From positions 6,529 through 70,528 of the forward strand of contig CAXBPH010000003.1 in NCBI GenBank assembly GCA_963977445.1: a DNA stretch of 64,000 bases, in the 5' to 3' direction. The DNA comes from an uncultured bacterium. Lineage in GTDB: Bacteria > Hydrogenedentota > Hydrogenedentia > Hydrogenedentales > JAEUWI01. The first letter of the stretch is position 1. Every line of letters starts with the position of its first letter. The notes beneath the pieces were generated by a model that made no database searches, had not been told where the DNA came from, and saw only the letters and a program-made list of their open reading frames with translations. The translations under genes were made by a program, and so were the position numbers. Of the stretch, positions 46,234 through 54,294 are shown piece by piece.

Positions 46234-47043
46234 TTAGACGGCGTCGGAAACGATTTTCTTTCCGGTAACCGGGCAAACTTTGGCTTCACCTTCGGAAGAA
46301 GCGGCTTTGGCCTTGTCACACTCAGACTTGGCTTTGTCGCAGGTCTTGGCTTCGCCTTCGGAAGAAGCAGCCTTGGCCTTGTCACACTCAGCTTTCGCTT
46401 TGTCACAAGTCTTGGCTTCACCTTCGGAAGAAGCAGCCTTGGCCTTGTCACAAGCGGACTTGGGGCATTCGCCTTCAGAGGAAGCAGCCTTCGCTTTGTC
46501 ACAGGTCTTGGCTTCACCTTCAGAAGAAGCGGCTTTGGCCTTGTCACACTCAGACGTGGCTTTGTCACAGGTCTTGGCTTCGCCTTCGGAAGAAGCAGCC
46601 TTGGCCTTGTCACAGGTCTTGGCTTCACCTTCGGAAGAAGCGGCCTTCGCTTTATCGCACTGCTTCGCTTCACCTTCGGAGGAAGCAGCCTTGGCTACCT
46701 TCGTCTTGCAGCAGCTGGACGCTTCACCTTCAGAGGAAGCCGCCAACGCCTTATCGAAGGTCGCCTGCCGGTCGGCGATCAGCTTGGCTTTCTTTTCGCA
46801 TGGCTGAAAGGCATCTTCATTCGCTGCGGAAACCGTCTGCATGCCGAAGAAGGAGGCAACACTGTTCTTAGCACTCGTGATGGCGCAGGAACCTGATGCT
46901 CCGTTGTTCGCAACAACGCCAGCAGTCGCCACGCCGGATACGACGACCATAGCAGCAACGAAGGATGCCCATTTGCCTTTGTTACGTTTCGGTGCTTGAG
47001 CCGTTTCTTCGGTCACAAGCTCTTCCTGATGTTCTTCGTTCAT
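46234..47043 (-). CDS. Single-pass membrane protein with ~10 tandem 15-aa Cys/Lys/Ala-rich repeats (CDKAKAASSEGEAKT), function unknown
   Basis: Short cytoplasmic N-terminus, TM helix WASFVAAMVVVSGVATAGVVA, then the repeat array with ~17 Cys including C-x6-C and C-x4-C pairs. C-terminus VCPVTGKKIVSDAV. ATG at 47043 has GGAG 9 nt upstream. Shadow ORFs exist in the other frames. Confidence 0.55.
   Translation of the reverse strand: MNEEHQEELVTEETAQAPKRNKGKWASFVAAMVVVSGVATAGVVANNGASGSCAITSAKNSVASFFGMQTVSAANEDAFQPCEKKAKLIADRQATFDKALAASSEGEASSCCKTKVAKAASSEGEAKQCDKAKAASSEGEAKTCDKAKAASSEGEAKTCDKATSECDKAKAASSEGEAKTCDKAKAASSEGECPKSACDKAKAASSEGEAKTCDKAKAECDKAKAASSEGEAKTCDKAKSECDKAKAASSEGEAKVCPVTGKKIVSDAV
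46270..46745. repeat. ~10 tandem copies of a 45-bp coding repeat (with 12-21-bp insert variants)
   Basis: Near-identical units GCTTCACCTTCGGAAGAAGCGGCTTTGGCCTTGTCACA... are visible directly. The repeat is continuous and in frame, so it is not spacer/repeat organised like a CRISPR array. Confidence 0.8.
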
Positions 47044-47562
47044 TGAATATTGCTCCACAAGTGTTTAAATAAGTTACCCATGCAATCTACACGATAAACA
47101 TAGATTCAAAATTGACCCGATTTCATGTCAAAACCTGGAATTATTCGTAGGGTTCAGCATAACAAAAACTCCGCCACTTCGCAATCCTGTCGAAGCGCGC
47201 ATTTCCACGAACCCGAAAGAAATGAAAACAACCTAACCATCTCAATTTAAAGGCGTTACATAAAGTGTGTCTTTAACCCACAATCGCTGGAACGGCTACG
47301 TCGTCAGCTCACCAAGTTTCAATGCAGTGCAATTTGTCCGAAAAATCGCTGAAAACAGGTTGGTTGGCCGAGAACATTCATGAAATAACTGCCCCATAGG
47401 CCATGCCCCCACGAAGCCCCGACTCAACCGGTATTTTGCCGACTTCCGACGATGTTGCCGATGTTTTTGAGGAAGTGGTGGCGGAGTCTTGTGCGGGTGT
47501 CTTGGTGGCTTGGGTCGTTGTCGGTCATCGTCGGCTGCCTTTTAAGATTGCCGAAAAGGGGC

Positions 47563-47766
47563 CTACTCTGCGGGATGCGCAGCCGTGATCGCGACGGGCT
47601 CCGAGGCCTCGCGGCTCTTGCGCATGAGTTCCTGGTCGATCATGCCAAGTTCGGCGGCCAAACCGGCTGCGGCTACGGACAGGCAGGTTTCTTCCACTTC
47701 CGCCGCGTGGCGCATCCATTCGGGAAAAGGAAACGCATCACTTGTGCTATTCATATCCATGGTCAT
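47563..47766 (-). CDS. Small hypothetical protein (67 aa); its start overlaps the stop of the upstream GNAT-like gene by 4 nt
   Basis: ORF only. No motif recognised. The overlap suggests translational coupling. Confidence 0.3.
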   Translation of the reverse strand: MTMDMNSTSDAFPFPEWMRHAAEVEETCLSVAAAGLAAELGMIDQELMRKSREASEPVAITAAHPAE

Positions 47767-48329
47767 AGGTGCCTTTCCAGAATTCTCTCTGCATTGTCGC
47801 GCGAAAGTTCAAAGTACGTCAAGTTTTCGAAATCCACGTCAGGGCCCAACGGTGTCATCCAACACGCCCCTCCGTAGAAGGGTACGGACTGCGGCAAGGC
47901 ATGTAGGCCCACTCGACCTCCAAAGCCTTCGTCCCAGCTTTGCCGGACGGCGCGCTCGAACAGGTGGGGACCAATCAGGCCGTATTTTCGCGTTTGCCCG
48001 ATACCTGGAATGGTCCAGTTCCAAGGGGCGACTTCCAGGAAGTCTATATATACCAGCGGCTTGCCATGATCTTCGCCGAGTTGGGAGAAATGTGTCCCAG
48101 ACTTGGTCAGCATGGCACCCTGCCATTCGTCGTCACAGACCACGGCGAATCCAGATGCAGGAACCAGGCGCAGGTGCTGCGCCTTGGCCCGCCAGTTCCA
48201 GTTGAGGCTCTGGGGTCGCTCGGAATAGGGAAGACCCGCGCGGGCTATTTCGAGAAGGATGCGGGAGCGTTCTGGAGTCCACACCGATTCCAGTGTCAGC
48301 AGGTCTTCAGGCGCGACGAGGAGGGCCAA
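47763..48329 (-). CDS. GNAT-fold acyltransferase-like protein (tentative)
   Basis: 188 aa. VYIDFLEVAPWNW and EGFGGRVGLHAL weakly resemble GNAT motif regions. It sits between the low-GC acpS and the small ORF. Confidence 0.4.
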   Translation of the reverse strand: MALLVAPEDLLTLESVWTPERSRILLEIARAGLPYSERPQSLNWNWRAKAQHLRLVPASGFAVVCDDEWQGAMLTKSGTHFSQLGEDHGKPLVYIDFLEVAPWNWTIPGIGQTRKYGLIGPHLFERAVRQSWDEGFGGRVGLHALPQSVPFYGGACWMTPLGPDVDFENLTYFELSRDNAERILERHL

Positions 48330-48348: not shown

Positions 48349-48732
48349 CTACTCACCCGTTGCGATGGCACTGGCGAAAGCGATTCCGCTCGAATAGCTA
48401 ATACTCACATGCCAATCTAAGATACCGAGCTCATCAGAAAACTTTGCCACGTCATGATTTAGCCTTACATATGGAGCCCCGTTCTTCCCCCGAAGAATTT
48501 CTATTCCATGCCACGTTATTTTTCCAGAAAACCCAGTACCAAGAGCCTTTGCGATGGCCTCCTTTGCGGCGTATCTACCTGCATAGTAACGATAGTGGGC
48601 TGGGGGAGGGTCGGCGGCTTCTCGCTCGTCTATTGAGCAAAAGCAATTGACCCAGCTATTCGTACCTGAGTCAATTTCATTTCTTATACGTTGAATTCTT
48701 TCAATATCGATTCCGTGACCAATGATTCGCAT
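48349..48732 (-). CDS. acpS: Holo-[acyl-carrier-protein] synthase (4-prime-phosphopantetheinyl transferase, AcpS type), low GC and probably island-borne
   Basis: MRIIGHGIDIERIQRI...YAAKEAIAKALGTG...WHVSISYSSGIAFASAIA aligns along its whole length with the AcpS family. The gene is ~40-50% GC in a ~60% GC genome. Confidence 0.85.
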   Translation of the reverse strand: MRIIGHGIDIERIQRIRNEIDSGTNSWVNCFCSIDEREAADPPPAHYRYYAGRYAAKEAIAKALGTGFSGKITWHGIEILRGKNGAPYVRLNHDVAKFSDELGILDWHVSISYSSGIAFASAIATGE

Positions 48733-48740
48733 GCATCCCC

Positions 48741-50624
48741 CTATTTTATTTCTCGAACTACGATATCTCTCTTGTCAAGATCCAGGTCAACAGTTCCGCC
48801 TCCACGAGATTTCAACTCTCTCCAAACTTTGAAGCCCTGCAGGATAGCGCGTTCCCATTCTCCCGTTGTGCATGCTGACACCTCAAGATGAAGGACGGTA
48901 TTCTTTATCATTCGTAACAATTCACTACTGACCGACAATTTACCCTCTAGGAAGTTGTAGTCACGAGCGTAGGCAAAAATCATTGCCGATAGTGCCTCTT
49001 CCGTGACAATCGCCCTTGCACCATCTTCCACTTCGTCAACTTTCGGATCACTCTTTCGCTTCGCTGTGAACATTTTCCTGACGAGTGGAGACCAACCTAG
49101 AACCGCAGCGAAAGACAAATGGATTACATCGTGGAGTCCGTAACCATCGTTCTCGTAAGCGTTGTCAGTCAAGTCATCACCAAACTGCTGACCCTTGTAC
49201 ATCACCCGTATTTTTGGGTTGTTGAATTCGTCATGGTATGTGCTGAAATCGAGTGAAAAACTACGTGGAAATTGTTCATTTTCGGGATATCCTGCATCGA
49301 ACGGAGTTCGCGAAGGTAACGTGCCCCACCGTTCATCACATTTCGCCAAGTTAAGCTCGGCGATCTCCTTCAGATCGAGATTAAACTTCGTGGCGACGTT
49401 TGCCACATACCACAGCAAGTCTCCGAGTTCCTCGCTTAAGCGGTCCTTAAACAATTTATGCGTGTCACCGTCCCGAAGATATTTCTTGTATTCACTCAAC
49501 AATTCACCGGATTCGCTTGCGAGGCCCAACAGAGGAATCGTTAGCGAAGACTCGTCCACACCGGGATTTTGATCTGTCCCGGCAACTTTCTCTTGGTATT
49601 TGCCCATATCCATGGCTCTTGTCTCCAGGTTCACCCCCGTACTCGATCGATTTTCTTCGTTTGAGCTGGTACGGCTGATTAATTCGTTTATGCCCCACTT
49701 GGGTGGGTACCAATAGTCGATTGGTTCTAAAATAGGCTTCAGCTTCTGCTTTATGCGACTTCGCCCTGATTTTCCGACGAATTCTGGATGTACAACTCGC
49801 GCGTACTTGTCTACTTCACAAAACAGGTTTTGGCAATCAATCAATTGAAGCGGCCTTCCCCATAAGTCGGAAAAATCTATGCCCAGTCGATTAAATTCCT
49901 CATCCTGCCTCTCGGTCACCCACCGGATTATTTGTGCAGTATCCTTCTTTCCCGGGTTTAGAAAGCACTTCTGGATTCCATCGAGTGCTCCGGGGCCTGC
50001 GACCACAAAGTCCATTTCAGAGAAGTTAATGATGGTGCTGTAGTTCAAATCGGTAACATACTGATAGGCTAGAAAGTTGCCTATCCCAGGTGATGACCGC
50101 ATTGATTCGAACGCCTCTTCCATGGACTCCGAATCAGCAATTCGTTTCGGTAGCTCCGAAGACATCATGTATTCAAGTAACTTAAGATGGTTCTGGTGTT
50201 TGAATGTTAGCGAAAATTTTCGGACGGAGGGCATTATATAGGCTGCGGAATAGATCCGCTGGCCTCGCGTCATCGCCTGACTTAAGACACGGTCATATGC
50301 CTTGTATGAGTAATCGGCGTATGTGAGATGGCCAAGCTCATTCTCAAGTAGTTTCCATGTATCGATGCGATTGAAAAGTTTGAATAGAATTATGCGAAAA
50401 AACACTTCAGCTGGATGAGTCGGGAGGTCTTCGTTGTATATTACGTTCCTAATGAGATATTGGCTCACTCTGTCAGAGGCTCTGTAGGCGTTCGTGAATT
50501 TGTGGTTTTGAAGCACAGCGTCATCCGTCCACGGAAGAGGGCGCTTACTTATTCGTCGAAAGAAGATTCTCTGTCGCTCGGCGGCGAATTTCCAATACGT
50601 ATCGTATACAGGAGTAGTTTTCAT
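48741..50624 (-). CDS. 627-aa multidomain protein: N-terminal uncharacterised domain (possibly aGPT-pyrophosphorylase-like) plus a central MazG-like NTP pyrophosphohydrolase domain
   Basis: Central ESGELLSEYKK...EELGDLLWYVANVATKFNLDLKEIAELNLAKCDERW matches the MazG EExxE / ELGDxL motifs. The N-terminal 300 aa (MKTTPVYDTYWKFAAERQRIFFRR...PWTDDAVLQNHKFTNAYRASDRVSQYL) reminds me of nucleotide-base hypermodification-associated families, but I cannot verify that here. Confidence 0.6.
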   Translation of the reverse strand: MKTTPVYDTYWKFAAERQRIFFRRISKRPLPWTDDAVLQNHKFTNAYRASDRVSQYLIRNVIYNEDLPTHPAEVFFRIILFKLFNRIDTWKLLENELGHLTYADYSYKAYDRVLSQAMTRGQRIYSAAYIMPSVRKFSLTFKHQNHLKLLEYMMSSELPKRIADSESMEEAFESMRSSPGIGNFLAYQYVTDLNYSTIINFSEMDFVVAGPGALDGIQKCFLNPGKKDTAQIIRWVTERQDEEFNRLGIDFSDLWGRPLQLIDCQNLFCEVDKYARVVHPEFVGKSGRSRIKQKLKPILEPIDYWYPPKWGINELISRTSSNEENRSSTGVNLETRAMDMGKYQEKVAGTDQNPGVDESSLTIPLLGLASESGELLSEYKKYLRDGDTHKLFKDRLSEELGDLLWYVANVATKFNLDLKEIAELNLAKCDERWGTLPSRTPFDAGYPENEQFPRSFSLDFSTYHDEFNNPKIRVMYKGQQFGDDLTDNAYENDGYGLHDVIHLSFAAVLGWSPLVRKMFTAKRKSDPKVDEVEDGARAIVTEEALSAMIFAYARDYNFLEGKLSVSSELLRMIKNTVLHLEVSACTTGEWERAILQGFKVWRELKSRGGGTVDLDLDKRDIVVREIK

Positions 50625-50672: not shown

Positions 50673-51497
50673 CTAAAAATCGTCATGAATAGGCTCGGAA
50701 ACTGTGCTCGTCACAGATTTGCAAAGTATTTTGTTAGAGCGCGTGATCAAGTCACGTGCATTGCGTACCCCCCAAGGAAATTGTTTTGAATCCTTAATTC
50801 TGGCTGGGCCTTTATCAATTTCGGCATGTGTGGAGACACAGGTGAGCGAACCGACGGTTAGGCCAGCTCGCTCTGCCACAAACGCCTGAAGTTGCCCCAA
50901 ACCGATTAGATTGCCAAGGCACCGAGATATGTACGTGTGGTTACGGTACATTGCTGTAAGCATCAAGCCCTTGTTTGGATGACATTTAAAGCTCAAAAAA
51001 CTGAGGCATTGTCCCCCCCATCGACTACGCCCATCCTCCAAGGGATCGTAAACCGCTAGCTCATATGCCGACTTGAACTTCTGACCACCATTCTCGCGTT
51101 CTTGTAGCTTACCGATCAGCTGTTCTAGTGGATTGTATGTCTTGCCGAGCCTAGTCTGATGCCTGGTCATTCGCTCAAAGTACCTACCCCAGCGCCGGGT
51201 CTTCGTCAGTCTATCGAACGCTTCATGGTATTTCTCGTAGAACACCGGAGCCCCGTGCTGATTGTAGAGTGATTGGGGAAAAATCGTGTTACAGACCGTG
51301 GATATGGGGTAGCAATCGTACTTTCGTAGAAAATCGTCTACCTCTGAAATGATTTCATTGTCAGTTGAATCGAACGATACGGGATTTTCTACATCAACAA
51401 TAACGTTGTATCCCTCATCATTGTGCTTCATGATCTCCATTGCAGCCGCTACCCACGCTCGCGCACAACTCTTCTGTGTCGGGATGGCGATGTACAT
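50673..51497 (-). CDS. Thymidylate-synthase-fold enzyme (ThyA / dCMP-dUMP hydroxymethylase superfamily, divergent)
   Basis: GGQCLSFLSFKCHPNKGLMLTAMYRNHTYISRCLGNLIGLGQLQAFVAERAGLTVGSLTCVSTHAEID aligns with the ThyA core PCHAFFQFYV...[21 protein letters not shown]...VGDFVWTGGDTHLY. QCL sits at the position of the catalytic PCH. Confidence 0.55.
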   Translation of the reverse strand: MYIAIPTQKSCARAWVAAAMEIMKHNDEGYNVIVDVENPVSFDSTDNEIISEVDDFLRKYDCYPISTVCNTIFPQSLYNQHGAPVFYEKYHEAFDRLTKTRRWGRYFERMTRHQTRLGKTYNPLEQLIGKLQERENGGQKFKSAYELAVYDPLEDGRSRWGGQCLSFLSFKCHPNKGLMLTAMYRNHTYISRCLGNLIGLGQLQAFVAERAGLTVGSLTCVSTHAEIDKGPARIKDSKQFPWGVRNARDLITRSNKILCKSVTSTVSEPIHDDF

Positions 51498-51509: not shown

Positions 51510-52157
51510 CTAATGCGTAATAAATGCGGAAAAGATTCGCGACCCGAGATAACGTTTGCTCAACCAGGCGTAGCCATGAAGGCCCCAGGATTCACCCCAA
51601 CTGTTTCTGATAGCGATATACTTTTCGCTGTTTTTCGTAGCTGTTGCGACGGCAACAACAGCGTGTCGTCGAACCGGGTCGATAGGCTCAGTTGAATCAA
51701 CGATTCCAACGTTGTCCGGGGTATAGAACGCATCTGAGAACGACATCGCGAGGACGACGGGCTTGTCGGTTTGGATGCAGTCCCAAACGGCGTCAAATGT
51801 GGCGGTTAAGGCGCTAGTATGGCATTGGAAAAGTTGCCCTACGTTGTTGGGAGGCTTCCAGTGCGAAATTGGGCTTGGCAATGCCTTGAGGTAGGGCCAG
51901 GCGAGTTCGTTCGGTTGCCCGTCCCCAGTTAATGCAGAGCATACCCCCGGAATGGAAACACCCAAATCTGGAGAGCTTCTCTCCCACTTTATCGCGTAGT
52001 AGTATAGGTACTCACACGACAAGGGTTGCCAATTCCTCTCCAGTGCGGCGGAATGTGCGTCGCTCGTGGCGAACGCCAGGCATGTCGGGCGCGCTCCTTG
52101 ATCGCGAGCGCTGCCAAAATATGGTCGTAGGTCGTGACGGATAATCATCGAACTCAT
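51510..52157 (-). CDS. Papain-like cysteine peptidase (C1A-like, compact, no pro-region)
   Basis: QGARPTCLAFA matches the QG-x-C-G-S-C-W-A-F spacing of the catalytic Cys. HAVVAVA matches the His region. NSWGESWGLHGYAWL matches papain NSWG..WG..GY. Confidence 0.7.
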   Translation of the reverse strand: MSSMIIRHDLRPYFGSARDQGARPTCLAFATSDAHSAALERNWQPLSCEYLYYYAIKWERSSPDLGVSIPGVCSALTGDGQPNELAWPYLKALPSPISHWKPPNNVGQLFQCHTSALTATFDAVWDCIQTDKPVVLAMSFSDAFYTPDNVGIVDSTEPIDPVRRHAVVAVATATKNSEKYIAIRNSWGESWGLHGYAWLSKRYLGSRIFSAFITH

Positions 52158-53167
52158 GGGCGACTCAACATTGCTTGGCGTTGAGCTGGCAGGAGGCCGG
52201 TTTGTAGTGGTCCTGTCAAGTTTACATCAAATTCGAGCGACTGTAGAGATTCATCATCTGAGAGCCATGGTCGCTGTTCACGAAGATTCACGTGACCGAG
52301 TGCCGACTGCTCCGGTTCAGCCACGATCTTACGTTCGACAATACTACCGATTGCATTTTCAGTCGAGCGGGCCTCTCGGATGTCCTCAACTATTTTGAGG
52401 CCGACTTTGGAGAGACTGTCAAACGACCACATGTACCCTGATGAAGCGTGTTCGATCAGCTCGAGAATCACGATGTCGTGCGCGCTTCCTTCAATTAGGA
52501 GCCTTTGATCGCCCATGCCAAGCACCCATATATCCGCATACCATGATTCTGGGGTGTGCTGTTTGGTGAGCTGCTGCTTGATAGATTTTGGTTGGGTTTT
52601 GAGCAGGGAGTCTCGTACTGATTTCGAAATCGCATTGTGCTTGAGGAGCGCATGACAAGTCGCCGCATAGCTTGACCCCATCCGTAAGGCCAATTGGTAG
52701 ACTATTTTCGGAGACGTTAGGTCTGAGCTCGCCCACCCTTGTTGACCCATGTGGTGCGTGATTAGCCATTTCGGTGTAAGCAGTTCGGAGGCAAACGCAT
52801 TTGCCTGCAGTTCTATGAGATCAAGAGCTGCCCCGCTCTCAAACGGAGTTCGGTTTAGCCTGGATTCGTCATCTAGACTAGACGAGTGCCCCATGACCGC
52901 GTGACCCAATTCGTGTGCTGCCGTGAAGCGCTGTACGGAAAGGGGGCGTTGTGTGGTCAACAGAACTCCAGATCCATTTTCTTCCAAATAGCATCCGAGC
53001 AGCCCCTTCATCGGTTGGAACATGACAGGTATGTCGAGAGCTGCGAGAAGTCCAAACACATCGATGCGTCCCACCCCACTCTTTACCTTTTTTTTGACAC
53101 CATGGCTAGCATGTAATCGGTTAGCAGCAAGAGCCGCCTCGAGTATAGCCTTACGAACGTCTGGCAT
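52154..53167 (-). CDS. ImmA/IrrE-family zinc metallopeptidase (COG2856) with a ~190-aa C-terminal domain of unknown function
   Basis: HEXXH in AAHELGHAVMGH, preceded by the typical ImmA helix. Its start overlaps the C1 peptidase gene by 4 nt. Confidence 0.75.
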   Translation of the reverse strand: MPDVRKAILEAALAANRLHASHGVKKKVKSGVGRIDVFGLLAALDIPVMFQPMKGLLGCYLEENGSGVLLTTQRPLSVQRFTAAHELGHAVMGHSSSLDDESRLNRTPFESGAALDLIELQANAFASELLTPKWLITHHMGQQGWASSDLTSPKIVYQLALRMGSSYAATCHALLKHNAISKSVRDSLLKTQPKSIKQQLTKQHTPESWYADIWVLGMGDQRLLIEGSAHDIVILELIEHASSGYMWSFDSLSKVGLKIVEDIREARSTENAIGSIVERKIVAEPEQSALGHVNLREQRPWLSDDESLQSLEFDVNLTGPLQTGLLPAQRQAMLSRP

Positions 53168-53170
53168 AGG

Positions 53171-53551
53171 TCAGCCCCCTTTTTGCGCTTTCCTCGATTT
53201 CAAGAATTCTGCGAATCTGGCGAGTTCGCTGCGATCTTCCGGGGCCAATTCAGATACCTGCCGTGCCAGATGAGCGACTTCCTTGTCAACTGGATGCGTG
53301 TCAGCGGTTTCACCGGTAAAAAAGTTCAGAGACCTCCCGTAGAGTTCGGCTAATTTCTTGAGTTCAAACACTTCAACTTTCCTCAGCCCTGCTTCCATCA
53401 AAGATAGCGCGGAACGAGAAGTACCTACTTTCGTGGCTATTTCGTTCTGGGAGAATCCAACATACTCTCGGGCTTCACGTAGCCGGTCACCAAGTACCTT
53501 TCTATCGCTATCACCTTCAACTTTTTTATTGTTGGGAGCTCTACTACTCAT
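53171..53551 (-). CDS. XRE-family (Cro/C1-type) helix-turn-helix transcriptional regulator
   Basis: LGDRLREAREYVGFSQNEIATKVGTSRSALSLMEAG is the HTH_3 motif. The ATG at 53551 overlaps the stop of the upstream ACP-like gene in an ATGA arrangement. Confidence 0.8.
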   Translation of the reverse strand: MSSRAPNNKKVEGDSDRKVLGDRLREAREYVGFSQNEIATKVGTSRSALSLMEAGLRKVEVFELKKLAELYGRSLNFFTGETADTHPVDKEVAHLARQVSELAPEDRSELARFAEFLKSRKAQKGG

Positions 53552-53868
53552 TTGCTTCCCTTTCTTTTTTCCTCTTCTTGGCACAATTTATCTATACGCA
53601 GCATCATATCGTCAATTGCTTCATCAACACTTTGATAGCCGCCTTTTCGTATAGTCTTGTCTGGAGGTAGTCGAAAACCAACGATTGGCTCGATGGCTAA
53701 CAAAGTGCTTACGACGGCAAAGGAGTCCAAAAGTGGCTCCCAAACCTTGCGCAACAGAGCCCCCTCATCCACAATCTCGTCAAGCTTGTCAGTCAAAACT
53801 GCCCGAATTTCGCAAGAAGTCAAATGAACATCTTCGTCGATTTGAAACGCTGTGGATGTGTTTGCCAT
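53548..53868 (-). CDS. Acyl-carrier-protein-like (phosphopantetheine-binding) small protein
   Basis: LLDSFAVVSTLLAIEPIVGFRLPPDKTI...SVDEAIDDMMLRI parallels ACP helix II/III (DSLDTVELVMALEE...FGIEIPDE...TVGDLVDYI), with Ser in DSF at the 4-prime-PP attachment position. Confidence 0.55.
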   Translation of the reverse strand: MANTSTAFQIDEDVHLTSCEIRAVLTDKLDEIVDEGALLRKVWEPLLDSFAVVSTLLAIEPIVGFRLPPDKTIRKGGYQSVDEAIDDMMLRIDKLCQEEEKRKGSK

Positions 53869-53935
53869 ACCGAATCTCCTGTGCTACTTGGTTAGGATAC
53901 CAAAATTCAGTTGGAAAATCAAACACAAAATATCA

Positions 53936-53958
53936 ATATGTTAGATTTTCTAACATAT
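53936..53958. promoter_or_regulatory. Perfect palindrome ATATGTTAGA-TTT-TCTAACATAT upstream of the island operon; candidate XRE-repressor operator
   Basis: 10-bp arms seen directly, ~70 nt upstream of the ACP-like gene start. A second long dyad (TATAGCCCAGGG...CCCTGGGCTATA) lies at 53961-54024. Confidence 0.45.
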
Positions 53959-54059
53959 GGTATAGCCCAGGGTTTTGCTTGTTCGCGCTTGGGGCGTGAA
54001 CTTGCTGCGCCCTGGGCTATAGTGTGTCACCCCGTTGGGGCTATTCAGATCGCCCTGTA

Positions 54060-54294
54060 CGGATTCGCCGAAGAATGACACTTCGCCCGAAGTGGGCGCC
54101 AGCAACCCCATGAGCACCTTGATGGTCGTGCTCTTACCCGCGCCATTGGGCCCGAGAAGGCCGAAGGCGGCCCCACGCTTTATTTGGAGATTGAGGCCGT
54201 GGACACCATCTCCGTGTTCGTAGGTTTTTACGAGTTCTGAGATTTCGACCACCGACTCGGTCTTCACCGGGGCCTGTTTATCCATAACCTGCAC
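54060..54294 (-). pseudogene. N-terminal fragment of an ABC transporter ATP-binding protein (Walker A GPNGAGKST) with nonsense readthrough after ~78 aa
   Basis: ORF 53950..54294. Homology is recognisable only to ...SGEVSFFGESV; the remaining 35 aa are unrelated junk before the stop. The break coincides with the island boundary. Confidence 0.5.

What the first reader, a model, noticed from the sequence alone, without database searches (positions are those of the whole stretch)
48741..50624. 627-aa MazG-core protein with a large unassigned N-terminal domain
The MazG EExxE and ELGDxL helices are clear at about aa 370-460, but ~300 aa N-terminal and ~170 aa C-terminal are unassigned. I could not confirm the N-terminal domain by eye as a pyrophosphorylase or transferase used in base hypermodification pathways. 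Fusion to MazG would couple pyrophosphate chemistry on a nucleotide substrate.
Basis: inference. Interest (0 to 1): 0.68.

Follow-up and report, generated by a model that had tools for sequence, protein, structure and literature searches.

The report
Pplase1–MazG–MazG_C nucleotide-modifying defence-cassette enzyme
The 627-aa protein is an ordinary member of an already catalogued but never characterised three-domain family (thymine-hypermodification-type domain + MazG pyrophosphatase + MazG_C), sitting in a small imported operon that looks like an inducible anti-phage system that rewires thymidine-type nucleotides and, unexpectedly, carries its own carrier protein and phosphopantetheinyl transferase.

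Summary
The ORF 48741-50624 (-) is real and intact. None of it is unassigned. Pfam places aa 4-282 in PF18723 (HMUDK_hel, formerly aGPT-Pplase clade 1; E 2.5e-114), aa 366-432 in MazG, and aa 440-625 in PF18722 MazG_C (E 8e-70). The MazG acidic residues are all present.

The gene lies in a 5.6-kb low-GC cassette of seven genes: ACP-like carrier, XRE repressor, ImmA/IrrE protease with a weak chagasin-like match, papain-like peptidase, divergent thymidylate-synthase-like enzyme, the fusion protein, and an AcpS-type PPTase. The core order recurs across phyla in the 80 related loci examined.

A related system, DS-4 (TS + kinase + HMUDK_hel + TIR + Nmad2), is an experimentally validated anti-phage system. 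MazG/MazG_C/aGPT-Pplase systems are so far only predicted.

- **Most likely function:** an inducible module that converts pyrimidine dNTPs into C5-modified nucleotides and/or depletes them. The individual steps are inferred, not shown.
- **Apparently unreported:** the carrier protein/PPTase linkage, and the lack of any structural match for MazG_C.

Verdict: new member of a known kind, moderate interest.

The parts
53910..53958 (.). Candidate operator: a 16-nt inverted repeat (88% complementary) and a perfect 10-nt inverted repeat ATATGTTAGA/TCTAACATAT, 42-90 nt upstream of the first gene of the cassette
   Evidence: Weak evidence: short repeats, not tested for conservation. The sigma-70 and terminator scans were not above shuffled expectation.
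53548..53868 (-). 106-aa acyl-carrier-protein-like gene with a conserved 'LLDS' serine (Ser49), the putative phosphopantetheine attachment site
   Evidence: It is syntenic with a ~97-aa gene found upstream of the HTH gene in 46 of 80 loci by clustering, plus 5 Planctomycete-type loci found by tblastn, giving 51/80. In alignment A1 the only invariant column is this Ser. The A1 profile hits 149 PDB sequences; the 60 listed are all ACPs (best 1.1e-8), and the Ser aligns to the DSL site. The Planctomycete-only profile is weaker (best ACP E 0.017). Its link to the main cluster is weak (hhalign E 0.0016).
53171..53551 (-). XRE-family HTH repressor. The likely start is the ATG at 53551, which overlaps the ACP-like stop codon as ATGA.
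   Evidence: Pfam HTH_31/HTH_3. The ATGA overlap was read directly from the sequence. Homologues are present in 53/80 loci.
52154..53167 (-). ImmA/IrrE (M78) metalloprotease with HExxH, plus a weak C-terminal match to the chagasin-family I42 cysteine-protease inhibitor
   Evidence: Pfam Peptidase_M78 at 9e-11. Inhibitor_I42 at 5.8e-5, below the curated cut-off. PADLOC capP at 4.7e-16. Homologues are present in 55/80 loci.
51510..52157 (-). Papain-like C1 cysteine peptidase, overlapping the ImmA gene by 4 nt
   Evidence: Pfam Peptidase_C1 at 1.7e-11. Found only in the five closest loci: L001, L002, L003, L005 and L007.
50673..51497 (-). Divergent thymidylate-synthase/hydroxymethylase-like enzyme with invariant Cys164 and Asn196
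   Evidence: No Pfam hit. NCBIfam TIGR03283 at 1.7e-10, below its cut-off. The family profile matches CMP hydroxymethylase MilA (5b6d) at E 0.045 and L. casei TS at about 0.4. Cys164 aligns to the catalytic P-C-H Cys and Asn196 to the PFN Asn. Present immediately upstream of the main gene in 60/80 loci.
49662..50624 (-). Main protein aa 1-321: aGPT-Pplase clade 1 / HMUDK_hel domain with a GIG helix-hairpin-helix-like motif and invariant Cys269 in 'CE(V/I/M)DK'
   Evidence: PF18723 at E 2.5e-114. 29% identity, E 2e-30, to the DS-4 protein WP_087900470.1. 500 phage records carry homologues. Foldseek top PDB hit is 8z2n, the 5-PmdU glycinyltransferase (prob 0.99, TM 0.46). Invariant residues come from alignment A7.
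49620..49661 (-). Disordered linker, aa 322-335
   Evidence: pLDDT below 50 in the full-length model.
49320..49619 (-). Main protein aa 336-435: MazG all-alpha NTP pyrophosphohydrolase domain with E371, E374, E378, E398, E399 and D402
   Evidence: PF03819 above its cut-off. Residue conservation. Foldseek matches to MazG, iMazG, DCTPP1 and YpjD at prob 1.0 and TM about 0.7.
48744..49319 (-). Main protein aa 436-627: MazG_C domain, with an enzyme-like set of invariant polar residues (N488, D493, H498, D499, H502, R516, K522-S525, D530, E533, D534, R537, E543, E581)
   Evidence: PF18722 at 8.3e-70. Domain model has pLDDT 94.8 and pTM 0.91. No credible Foldseek match in the PDB or BFVD. No PDB sequence match at E<=10. 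It exists as a stand-alone 187-193-aa protein in Bacteroidota loci.
48349..48732 (-). AcpS-type 4'-phosphopantetheinyl transferase belonging to the cassette
   Evidence: Pfam ACPS at 2.9e-16; TIGR00556 and TIGR00516 score above their cut-offs. Its GC content is that of the island (0.45-0.46) and not of the flanks. It is adjacent in 32/80 loci across phyla. 30 of those 32 loci have MazG_C (Fisher p 8.5e-6) and 29 of 32 have the ACP-like gene.

Best explanation
The ORF encodes a three-domain enzyme. The domains are aGPT-Pplase clade 1 (Pfam 'HMUDK_hel', a helix-hairpin-helix, glycosylase-like, Cys-dependent pyrimidine-C5 transferase fold), a MazG NTP pyrophosphohydrolase, and MazG_C (an enzyme-like domain of unknown fold that others have labelled a predicted nucleotide kinase).

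It is the central enzyme of a horizontally acquired 5.6-kb operon: ACP-like carrier > XRE repressor > ImmA protease > C1 peptidase > TS-like enzyme > this protein > PPTase. The operon belongs to a widespread group of pyrimidine-nucleotide-modifying cassettes that are predicted, and in one related form shown, to protect bacteria from phages.

Proposed mechanism (all steps inferred):
1. An infection or DNA-damage signal makes the ImmA protease remove the XRE repressor, and the operon is expressed.
2. The MazG domain hydrolyses a pyrimidine dNTP (dUTP, dTTP or dCTP) to the monophosphate plus PPi. This both depletes a replication substrate and supplies dUMP.
3. The TS-like enzyme (Cys164) adds a one-carbon unit at C5, giving an hm-dUMP-like product.
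4. MazG_C phosphorylates the product, either at the C5 hydroxymethyl group or at the 5' phosphate.
5. The Pplase1 domain (Cys269) exchanges the C5 substituent.
6. The resulting non-canonical thymidine-type nucleotide and/or dTTP starvation blocks phage DNA synthesis.

The carrier protein, once converted to its holo form by the cassette's own PPTase, takes part in a way that is not yet clear, perhaps as a carrier or thiol donor.
For: Shown:
- Domain identities and intact catalytic-type residues.
- Structure model and fold matches to the 5-PmdU glycinyltransferase and to MazG proteins.
- Low-GC insertion between housekeeping genes, next to a truncated ABC-ATPase gene.
- Tightly packed, partly overlapping genes.
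- Cassette order conserved across Planctomycetota, Cyanobacteria, Bacteroidota, Chloroflexota and others: TS-like in 60/80 loci, ImmA 55, HTH 53, ACP 51, PPTase 32.
- The ImmA protein matches the CBASS regulator capP.

Supporting a nucleotide-level pathway:
- In Bacteroidota the MazG domain is replaced by a dCTP-deaminase/dUTPase-fold gene next to a stand-alone MazG_C.
- In other loci the Pplase1 domain is fused to a thymidylate-kinase-like domain and followed by a canonical TS.
- MazG_C and canonical TS are mutually exclusive: 0/52 against 20/28.
- Phage SH-Ab 15599 has the same trio side by side: gp16 PF18723, gp17 dUMP hydroxymethylase, and gp18 (kinase-like + dimeric dUTPase), which was shown to be a dTTPase/dUTPase that feeds hmdU synthesis (PMC13458397).

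Supporting a defence role:
- DS-4 (TS + kinase + HMUDK_hel + TIR + Nmad2) is listed as a validated, replicated anti-phage system in E. coli; one held plaque-assay row shows about a 1-log effect on lambda (PMC13092281). Its HMUDK_hel protein is 29% identical to the window's N-domain.
- The same paper lists systems with aGPT-Pplase, MazG and MazG-C domains as predicted defence systems.
- TIR, Nmad2 and DCD genes co-occur in related loci.

Supporting a Cys-dependent mechanism: Pplase2 uses Cys247 and a metal ion (PMC11472151, PMC13458397). Cys269 is the only cysteine invariant from bacteria to phage in clade 1.
Against: - No member of this exact architecture has been tested. The DefensePredictor paper states that none of the aGPT-Pplase/MazG/MazG-C systems is validated.
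- No activity is known for clade 1 Pplase. M6 gp55 was not needed for in-vitro hypermodification (PMC8989533).
- The TS-like assignment rests on weak scores: no Pfam hit and PDB profile E 0.045. It is not detectably similar to the DS-4 TS.
- Some loci carry both the TS-like gene and a canonical TS. The TS-like gene travels with ACP-HTH-ImmA in every ACP-bearing locus, 51/51. It may therefore be a sensor or regulator and not a pathway enzyme.
- The kinase label for MazG_C has no support from fold or sequence searches here.
- The carrier protein and PPTase have no place in any known nucleotide-depletion or hypermodification scheme.
- In this window the cassette lies between housekeeping genes, not among recognised defence genes. 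PADLOC finds no match for the main protein.
- The co-occurrence counts are not corrected for shared ancestry.
Confidence: 0.5

Rival explanations
1. Self-DNA thymidine hypermodification. The cassette makes 5-hmdU-type nucleotides and decorates the bacterium's own (or a mobile element's) DNA, as hypermodifying phages do, to protect it from nucleases.
For: The N-domain family occurs in at least 500 phage records, largely relatives of thymidine-hypermodifying phages (ViI-like, M6/YuA-like, SP-10). It sits in the M6 hypermodification cluster as gp55. NCBI names relatives 'putative DNA base hypermodification protein'. Fold similarity to a DNA-acting 5-PmdU glycinyltransferase.
Against: The enzymes shown to be necessary and sufficient for the hypermodification step reconstituted in vitro are absent. 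There is no P-loop 5-hmdU DNA kinase (PF18748) and no amino-acid:DNA transferase (PF18724) in the protein or the cassette. There is no dedicated polymerase. The operon sits behind a repressor/protease pair typical of inducible systems. Fusion partners across the family are nucleotide-level enzymes: TMP-kinase-like, MazG and DCD.
Confidence: 0.15
2. Small-molecule biosynthesis. The cassette makes a modified nucleoside or nucleotide natural product (antibiotic-like or signalling), using a hydroxymethylase, a carrier protein and a PPTase.
For: The best solved match of the TS-like family is MilA, the CMP hydroxymethylase of mildiomycin biosynthesis. A dedicated carrier protein plus PPTase is a hallmark of secondary metabolism.
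Against: No adenylating, condensing, thioesterase or export genes are present in the cassette. The cassette is only 5.6 kb. Regulation is of the XRE/ImmA type. It is related to a validated anti-phage system and co-occurs with TIR and Nmad2 genes. This rival overlaps with 'chemical defence', so it is only partly distinct from the best explanation.
Confidence: 0.15
3. Sensor of phage hmU-DNA. The HhH-type N-domain recognises 5-hmdU or related bases in invading DNA, and MazG and MazG_C act on that DNA or on nucleotides as the effector. The TS-like/ACP/ImmA/HTH block would be purely regulatory.
For: The Pfam name (helical domain of the 5-hmdU DNA kinase) and fusion to the kinase in SP10 gp186 (PMC5889632). 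The related Pplase2 flips a base out of dsDNA (PMC11472151). One relative is fused to a DNA methylase and a NADAR domain (P0196). ACP-HTH-ImmA-TS-like behaves as a unit in front of two different effector sets.
Against: There is no evidence that clade 1 binds DNA. hmU-DNA phages are a narrow target for a system spread over many phyla. The replacement of MazG by a DCD/dUTPase-fold enzyme points to dUMP supply, which a DNA sensor would not need.
Confidence: 0.12
4. Housekeeping function. An ordinary MazG house-cleaning pyrophosphatase and the cell's ordinary AcpS happen to lie together.
For: MazG and AcpS are common housekeeping genes. The flanks are housekeeping genes: RarA, DnaK and HrcA.
Against: GC content drops from about 0.58-0.60 to 0.40-0.55 exactly over the seven genes. 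The same gene set recurs in unrelated phyla. MazG is embedded between two specialised domains. The PPTase tracks MazG_C in 30 of 32 loci.
Confidence: 0.03

Closest known systems
Pfam architecture PF18723 (HMUDK_hel / aGPT-Pplase1) + PF03819 (MazG) + PF18722 (MazG_C); NCBI names 'putative DNA base hypermodification protein' and 'nucleotide kinase domain-containing protein'
   Same: Same three domains in the same order. 60-69% identity to the 119 listed full-length relatives (the 120th listed hit, P0001, is the identical protein). Same neighbours in the closest loci.
   Different: Nothing essential. The window protein lacks the ~30-aa N-terminal extension of most relatives. The Planctomycete subgroup adds a C1 peptidase and a weak chagasin-like match on ImmA.
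DS-4 ('NTTI') anti-phage system of E. coli (DefensePredictor, PMC13092281)
   Same: Contains an HMUDK_hel protein 29% identical (E 2e-30) to the N-domain, together with a TS-family enzyme and a nucleotide kinase. DS-4-like loci (HMUDK_hel + TS + TIR + Nmad2) are among the 80 relatives.
   Different: DS-4 has a canonical TS, a P-loop kinase, and TIR and Nmad2 genes. The gene set listed for it includes no MazG, MazG_C, carrier protein, PPTase or HTH/ImmA gene. Across the loci, MazG_C and canonical TS never co-occur. The window's TS-like protein is not detectably similar to the DS-4 TS.
Phage thymidine-hypermodification clusters (M6 gp51-55, ViI, SP10, PhiW-14, SH-Ab 15599)
   Same: The phages carry PF18723 homologues, such as M6 gp55 and 15599 gp16. 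These lie next to dUMP hydroxymethylase and an all-alpha dTTPase/dUTPase.
   Different: The phage pathway needs the P-loop 5-hmdU DNA kinase (PF18748) and the amino-acid:DNA transferase (PF18724), and both are absent here. The phage clade 1 proteins are 23-37% identical and stand alone. The role of clade 1 is unknown even in phages.
MazG-family house-cleaning NTP pyrophosphohydrolases (E. coli MazG, integron iMazG, DCTPP1/RS21-C6, YpjD, DR2231)
   Same: Four-helix fold and ExxE...ExxD metal-binding residues. Foldseek prob 1.0 and TM about 0.7.
   Different: Those proteins stand alone or are tandem MazG repeats. This MazG domain is flanked by Pplase1 and MazG_C, and its substrate is unknown.
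CapH/CapP-type HTH + ImmA/IrrE regulators of defence operons
   Same: An XRE HTH gene is immediately followed by an M78 protease gene at the head of the operon. PADLOC capP match at 4.7e-16.
   Different: Here the pair is preceded by a carrier-protein gene and followed by a TS-like gene in every ACP-bearing locus (51/51). The protease also has a weak C-terminal chagasin-like match.
Nucleotide-depletion defences (dCTP deaminase, dGTPase)
   Same: dCTP-deaminase-fold genes occur in 30/80 related loci and replace MazG in Bacteroidota. Hydrolysis of dNTPs by MazG would have a similar effect. That these depletion defences exist is from general knowledge, not tested here.
   Different: Those systems are single enzymes. 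This cassette has extra enzymes that imply conversion, not just depletion.

Membership tests
aGPT-Pplase clade 1 / HMUDK_hel (PF18723) | Match to the family HMM above the curated cut-off over the whole domain | tested here: met
   381.8 bits against a cut-off of 25; profile positions 1-279 of 281.
aGPT-Pplase clade 1 / HMUDK_hel (PF18723) | Family-wide invariant residues, including the single conserved Cys | tested here: met
   R17, N45, R48, D51, R52, H143, D192, G210-P-G212, C269, E270, D272, K273 and R276 are invariant in an alignment with DS-4 and phage members.
aGPT-Pplase clade 1 / HMUDK_hel (PF18723) | Helical, HhH-containing fold related to the Pplase2/DNA-glycosylase fold | tested here: met
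   Foldseek top hit is 8z2n (Pplase2), prob 0.99 over 274 columns, TM 0.46, E 0.078. OGG glycosylases match weakly. There is no sequence-level link.
aGPT-Pplase clade 1 / HMUDK_hel (PF18723) | Biochemical activity | not testable with these tools
   No activity is established for any clade 1 member (PMC8989533).
[quoted passage not shown] | P-loop kinase domain PF18748, as in M6 gp54 | tested here: not met
   No PF18748 hit in the protein or the cassette. M6 gp54 does hit it. Despite the Pfam name of its N-domain, this protein should not be called a 5-hmdU DNA kinase.
Amino-acid:DNA transferase (AADT, PF18724, ex aGPT-Pplase2) | Match to PF18724 | tested here: not met
   No hit. Profile comparison with M6 gp51 is not significant, E 0.48.
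MazG NTP pyrophosphohydrolase (PF03819) | HMM match above the cut-off | tested here: met
   27.0 bits against a cut-off of 22, aa 366-432.
MazG NTP pyrophosphohydrolase (PF03819) | Metal-binding acidic residues ExxE ... ExxD | tested here: met
   E371, E374, E378, E398, E399 and D402 are present and conserved in 43-52 of 52 homologues.
MazG NTP pyrophosphohydrolase (PF03819) | All-alpha four-helix fold | tested here: met
   Foldseek prob 1.0 and TM 0.7 to 5ie9, 2q73, 2gta and DCTPP1.
MazG NTP pyrophosphohydrolase (PF03819) | (d)NTP to (d)NMP + PPi activity, and substrate identity | not testable with these tools
   Requires an enzyme assay.
MazG_C (PF18722) | HMM match above the cut-off | tested here: met
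   234.7 bits against a cut-off of 29.7, aa 440-625.
MazG_C (PF18722) | The 'predicted nucleotide kinase' function ascribed to it | tested here: inconclusive
DS-4-type defence system | HMUDK_hel protein | tested here: met
   29% identity, E 2e-30.
DS-4-type defence system | Canonical TS, P-loop dNMP kinase, and TIR and Nmad2 genes in the operon | tested here: not met
   None is present in the 47.7-54 kb cassette. The TS-like protein is not similar to the DS-4 TS. The window is therefore a sister type, not a DS-4 member.
DS-4-type defence system | Protection against phage | not testable with these tools
   Needs plaque assays.
Thymidylate synthase / pyrimidine hydroxymethylase superfamily (neighbour gene 50673-51497) | Family HMM above the cut-off | tested here: not met
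   No Pfam PF00303 hit. TIGR03283 scores 40.8 bits against a cut-off of 174.55.
Thymidylate synthase / pyrimidine hydroxymethylase superfamily (neighbour gene 50673-51497) | Catalytic Cys nucleophile and base-contacting Asn | tested here: inconclusive
   Invariant C164 and N196 align to the P-C-H Cys and the PFN Asn, but only in weak profile matches (E 0.045 to 0.4).
Acyl/peptidyl carrier protein (gene 53548-53868) | Conserved Ser in a D-S motif at the start of helix II; similarity to ACPs | tested here: inconclusive
   Clear for the family in other phyla (E 1e-8; the 60 listed PDB hits are all ACPs). Weaker for the window's subgroup (E 0.017; hhalign E 0.0016). Position and size are conserved.
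AcpS-type PPTase (gene 48349-48732) | HMM matches above the cut-offs | tested here: met
   PF01648 59.9 against 25; TIGR00556 72 against 45.35; TIGR00516 64.3 against 59.8.
CapH/CapP-like regulator pair | Adjacent XRE HTH and M78 protease genes at the head of the operon | tested here: met

The most novel reading that the evidence does not exclude
The cassette's own holo-carrier protein is a reactant, not a bystander. The phosphopantetheine thiol (or a group carried on it) would be the nucleophile that the Cys269-dependent Pplase1 domain adds to an activated C5-methylene of a uracil nucleotide. That nucleotide would be made by the TS-like enzyme and activated by MazG_C. The product would be a protein-linked or pantetheine-linked pyrimidine nucleotide (or DNA adduct) that acts as the antiviral agent. 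This would be a new kind of nucleobase chemistry and the first role for a carrier protein/PPTase pair in phage defence.
Probability: 0.07. Interest if true: 0.85.

Novelty: new member of a known kind. Interest (0 to 1): 0.48.

Why it matters
Nobody has shown what the clade 1 'pyrophosphorylase' domain does, either in thymidine-hypermodifying phages or in bacteria. Nobody has shown what MazG_C does either. Systems built from these domains are listed as predicted but unvalidated immune systems.

This locus is a compact, complete example of seven genes in 5.6 kb with clear catalytic-residue candidates. That makes the question directly testable. The recurrent carrier protein/PPTase pair, the exchange of MazG for a dUTPase-fold enzyme, and the mutual exclusion with canonical TS give concrete hypotheses about the pathway.

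If it works as proposed, it would extend nucleotide-pool defences from simple depletion to the synthesis of altered nucleotides. It could also provide new enzymes for DNA or nucleotide modification.

Tried and rejected
- **Promoter and terminator scans** over 47.4-54.5 kb gave counts no higher than shuffled sequence, so they are not used.
- **No tRNA or integrase** marks the island ends.
- **PADLOC** has no model matching the main protein, the TS-like gene or the C1 peptidase.
- **PHROGs** only repeats 'MazG-like pyrophosphatase' and an unknown-function family.
- **Sequence profile of the N-domain against the PDB** returned only spurious hits such as HIV gp120. Profile comparison with M6 gp51 (Pplase2) was not significant (E 0.48, prob 0.1). 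Its only aligned stretch pairs C269 with the catalytic Cys247. I treat that as a hint only.
- **DS-4 TS against the window's TS-like protein** was not significant.
- **SH-Ab 15599 gp18 against the MazG-MazG_C half** was not significant. The phage uses a different member of the all-alpha superfamily (dUTPase_2) and a P-loop kinase.
- **Source organism:** it could not be named. The identical protein has no name or contig on record. Planctomycetota is inferred only from the closest cassette relatives.
- **Papers not held:** the Aravind-lab papers that first defined these domains (NAR 2013, NAR 2015) could not be read. I therefore cannot exclude that the ACP/PPTase linkage was noted there. Two full-text searches combining these terms found nothing, and the papers found by domain-name searches did not appear to address it.
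- **Downstream 188-aa ORF (47763-48329):** considered and rejected as part of the cassette. Its GC matches the flanking sequence, it has no family hit, and it has no homologue in the 80 loci.


Full report
**1. The observation**

An ATG-initiated ORF of 627 codons lies at exactly 48741..50624 on the minus strand. It is not a chance ORF. Pfam gives three strong matches:
- PF18723 HMUDK_hel at aa 4-282 (E 2.5e-114, 381.8 bits).
- PF03819 MazG at aa 366-432 (27 bits against a cut-off of 22).
- PF18722 MazG_C at aa 440-625 (E 8.3e-70).

An AlphaFold2 model built on 52 homologues has mean pLDDT 85.6. It shows three folded parts, and its only stretch with pLDDT below 50 is a linker at aa 322-335.

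The first helix reads E371-S-G-E374-L-L-S-E378, not a literal EExxE. The second reads E398-E399-L-G-D402-L-L. In 52 homologues E371, E378, E399 and D402 are invariant, E398 is kept in 51 and E374 in 43.

The statement that about 300 N-terminal and 170 C-terminal residues are unassigned is not correct.

The public gene call for the identical protein is 575 aa (P0001), 52 residues shorter. That implies a start at V53, which would delete invariant residues. The 627-aa reading is therefore preferred.

**2. What the domains are**

PF18723 is the family first called alpha-glutamyl/putrescinyl thymine pyrophosphorylase clade 1. A tblastn search of aa 1-300 against phage genomes finds 500 records. They include ViI-like Ackermannviridae, M6/YuA-like Pseudomonas phages and SP-10, at 23-37% identity, and some are annotated with the old name.

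In phage M6 I verified the assignments with Pfam:
- gp51 is PF18724, the amino-acid:DNA transferase (former clade 2).
- gp54 is PF18748, the real P-loop 5-hmdU DNA kinase.
- gp55 is PF18723.

According to PMC8989533, gp54 plus gp51 suffice for hypermodification in lysates and gp55 is dispensable. So despite its current Pfam name the domain is not a kinase, and its activity is unknown.

Its closest solved structure is the clade 2 enzyme PaMx11 gp46 (8z2n; Foldseek prob 0.99 over 274 columns, TM 0.46), followed weakly by OGG-type glycosylases. Clade 2 enzymes use a catalytic cysteine (Cys247) and a metal ion (PMC11472151, PMC13458397).

In an alignment of the window's domain with bacterial relatives, the DS-4 protein and phage 15599 gp16, the only invariant cysteine is C269, in the motif CE(V/I/M)DK. 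A profile comparison with M6 gp51 is statistically insignificant, and its only aligned stretch pairs C269 with Cys247. I take this as a hint, not a result.

The MazG domain matches MazG, iMazG, DCTPP1 and YpjD structures at prob 1.0 and TM about 0.7.

MazG_C modelled alone is very confident (pLDDT 94.8, pTM 0.91). It has no credible neighbour in the PDB or in BFVD and no PDB sequence match even at E 10. It also occurs as a free-standing protein of 187-193 aa. Its invariant polar residues look like an active site: N488, D493, H498, D499, H502, R516, K522-R-K-S525, D530, E533, D534, R537, E543 and E581. The label 'predicted nucleotide kinase' used in PMC13092281 could be neither supported nor refuted.

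**3. How common it is**

The 120 best all have the same three domains: one is the identical protein and the other 119 are full-length relatives at 60-69% identity.

The exhaustive search of 1.84 billion cluster representatives gives 10,337 hits at E<=1e-3 and 1,097 at E<=1e-30. Among the 150 best listed hits, most are the N-domain alone, N-domain proteins with an extra ~210-300-aa N-terminal region, or MazG+MazG_C proteins of about 295 aa. Pfam scans of two of the extended proteins show a thymidylate-kinase-like domain fused to the N-domain.

The triple fusion is therefore one arrangement of a modular family. Relatives occur in Planctomycetota (closest, 67%), Cyanobacteria, Bacteroidota, Chloroflexota, Acidobacteriota and others.

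**4. The surroundings**

GC content falls from about 0.58-0.60 to 0.40-0.55 between roughly 48.35 and 53.95 kb. The flanks are housekeeping genes (RarA, DnaK, HrcA). A truncated ABC-ATPase gene abuts the upstream end.

The low-GC block holds seven minus-strand genes separated by -4 to 48 nt:
1. A 106-aa ACP-like gene (53868-53548).
2. An XRE HTH gene, whose ATG overlaps the preceding stop codon as ATGA.
3. An ImmA/IrrE protease with a weak chagasin-like C-terminal match.
4. A papain-like C1 peptidase.
5. A TS-like gene.
6. The fusion protein.
7. An AcpS-type PPTase.

I compared these genes with 80 related loci by tblastn and by clustering all ORFs. The frequencies are:

| Gene | Loci of 80 |
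|---|---|
| TS-like, immediately upstream of the main gene | 60 |
| ImmA | 55 |
| HTH | 53 |
| ACP-like | 51 |
| PPTase | 32 |
| dCTP-deaminase-fold gene | 30 |
| Canonical TS | 20 |
| ThsB-type TIR | 15 |
| Nmad2 | 15 |
| DUF1643 | 13 |

Four patterns stand out:
- The PPTase is almost confined to loci with MazG_C (30 of 32, Fisher p 8.5e-6) and to loci with the ACP-like gene (29 of 32).
- MazG_C and canonical TS never co-occur (0/52 against 20/28).
- The ACP-like gene is always accompanied by ImmA and TS-like genes (51/51).
- Ten loci have MazG_C without MazG. In the Bacteroidota examples a dCTP-deaminase/dUTPase-fold gene sits between the N-domain gene and a stand-alone MazG_C.

These counts are not corrected for shared ancestry, but they span several phyla and both gene orientations.

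**5. The carrier protein**

The small upstream proteins from other phyla have one invariant column, a serine in G-F-D-S-L. Their profile hits 149 PDB sequences; the 60 listed are all acyl carrier proteins (best 1.1e-8), with that serine on the phosphopantetheine site.

The window's version (LLDS, Ser49) belongs to a divergent subgroup shared with the five closest loci (38-44% identity, same position). That subgroup's profile still ranks ACPs first, but only at E 0.017. Its link to the main group is weak.

I conclude that the cassette very probably encodes its own carrier protein and the enzyme that activates it. The window's copy is less certain than the family as a whole.

**6. The TS-like gene**

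It has no Pfam hit and a sub-threshold NCBIfam hit to archaeal thymidylate synthase (1.7e-10). The family profile matches CMP hydroxymethylase MilA (E 0.045) and L. casei TS (about 0.4). The invariant Cys164 aligns to the catalytic cysteine and the invariant Asn196 to the base-contacting asparagine. The assignment is plausible but weak.

Because the gene always travels with ACP-HTH-ImmA, and sometimes coexists with a canonical TS, a sensor or regulatory role cannot be excluded.

**7. Links to known biology**

- PMC13092281 lists DS-4 of E. coli among its validated, replicated systems. DS-4 comprises thymidylate synthase, adenylate-kinase-like dNMP kinase, an HMUDK_hel protein, a TIR protein and an Nmad2 protein. 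One held plaque-assay row shows about a 1-log effect on lambda.
- The same paper lists systems containing aGPT-Pplase, MazG, MazG-C and dUTPase domains as predicted defence systems, and says none has been validated.
- The DS-4 HMUDK_hel protein is 29% identical to the window's N-domain (E 2e-30). DS-4-like loci are among the 80 relatives.
- In phage SH-Ab 15599 three genes are adjacent: the PF18723 gene (gp16), dUMP hydroxymethylase (gp17), and gp18, a kinase-like domain plus a dimeric dUTPase. PMC13458397 shows gp18 to be a dTTPase/dUTPase that depletes dTTP and supplies dUMP.
- The window's ImmA protein matches capP, the CBASS regulator, in PADLOC.

**8. Most likely mechanism**

The shown facts are the domain identities, the intact residues, the imported operon and its conserved content. 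Everything about chemistry is inferred.

The partners of the Pplase1 domain across the family are TS or TS-like enzymes, thymidylate-kinase-like domains, MazG, and dUTPase/DCD-fold enzymes. All are enzymes of free pyrimidine deoxynucleotides. The interchange of MazG with a dUTPase-fold enzyme points to dUMP production as the shared step.

I therefore propose an inducible pathway:
1. Removal of the repressor by ImmA.
2. dNTP to dNMP + PPi by MazG.
3. C5 one-carbon addition by the TS-like enzyme.
4. Phosphorylation by MazG_C.
5. C5 substitution by the Cys269 domain.

The outcome would be dTTP depletion and/or an altered nucleotide that poisons phage replication. I put about 0.5 on the general picture and much less on any single step. 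The carrier protein and PPTase do not fit any known scheme and remain unexplained.

**9. Rivals**

Each is detailed in the rivals section.
- Self-DNA hypermodification is weakened by the absence of the kinase and transferase that the phage pathway requires.
- Natural-product biosynthesis has hints from MilA and the ACP/PPTase pair, but no other biosynthetic genes are present.
- A sensor of hmU-DNA.
- Housekeeping function is contradicted by composition and by cross-phylum synteny.

**10. Novelty and score**

The protein is a new member of a known, named, populous but uncharacterised family.

Three things may be new. The first is the recurrent carrier-protein/PPTase linkage; two full-text searches combining these terms found nothing. 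The founding bioinformatic papers could not be read. The second is the lack of any structural match for MazG_C. The third is the Planctomycete-specific pairing of a papain-like peptidase with a weak chagasin-like match on ImmA.

Interest is 0.48: not surprising as a sequence, but a compact and testable entry point to an open question.

Noticed in passing
window 52154-53167 (-) and 51510-52157 (-): The ImmA/IrrE protease has a C-terminal match to the chagasin family of cysteine-protease inhibitors (aa 230-306, E 5.8e-5, below the Pfam cut-off). It overlaps by 4 nt a papain-like C1 peptidase gene. By eye, that peptidase appears to keep the catalytic Cys context ('RPTCLAF'), 'HAV' and 'NSWG' motifs. 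An inhibitor/protease pair inside a regulatory module is unusual. It occurs only in the five closest loci: L001, L002, L003, L005 and L007.
   Followed up: partly
window 53950-54294 (-): An N-terminal fragment of an ABC-transporter ATPase. The Walker A motif GPNGAGKST is intact, and the reading frame degenerates after about aa 80. It lies directly against the upstream end of the low-GC cassette and looks like the scar of the insertion. The rest of the gene is not at the other end of the cassette.
   Followed up: partly
window 47763-48329 (-): A 188-aa ORF lies 19 nt downstream of the PPTase gene. It has no Pfam, NCBIfam, PADLOC or PHROG match and no homologue in the 80 related loci. Its GC content (about 0.59) is like that of the flanking sequence, so it is probably not part of the cassette. 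By eye it has a GNAT-like look, which was not tested.
   Followed up: partly
window 46234-47058 (-): A 274-aa protein with a hydrophobic N-terminal segment and about ten tandem copies of a 'CDKAKAASSEGEAKT'-type Cys-containing repeat. It has no Pfam match.
   Followed up: no
L046, L052, L055, L068, L069 (Bacteroidota loci), about 3-7 kb or 8-11 kb in each: A variant cassette: ACP > HTH > ImmA > TS-like > stand-alone Pplase1 (about 345 aa) > dCTP-deaminase/dUTPase-fold gene > stand-alone MazG_C (about 190 aa) > PPTase. The MazG domain is replaced by a non-homologous enzyme able to make dUMP.
   Followed up: partly
P0196 (1007 aa): A relative in which the Pplase1 domain is fused to an N-terminal NADAR domain and a C-terminal N6/N4 DNA methyltransferase. 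This is a DNA-directed context that differs from the nucleotide-level partners seen elsewhere.
   Followed up: no
L009-L017, L023, L025 (cyanobacterial loci), downstream of the main gene: A DUF1643 gene (Pfam E 1e-51) follows the PPTase on the opposite strand in 13 loci. A MazG/MazG-C system with a UDG-labelled gene is listed as a predicted defence system in PMC13092281, and DUF1643 may correspond to that UDG label (from memory, not checked).
   Followed up: no
P0001 (public protein identical to window aa 53-627): The public gene call is 52 residues shorter than the ORF, which implies a start at GTG (V53). That start would remove 52 residues, including invariant family positions W11, R17 and F43-R52, so it is probably mis-annotated.
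   Followed up: yes
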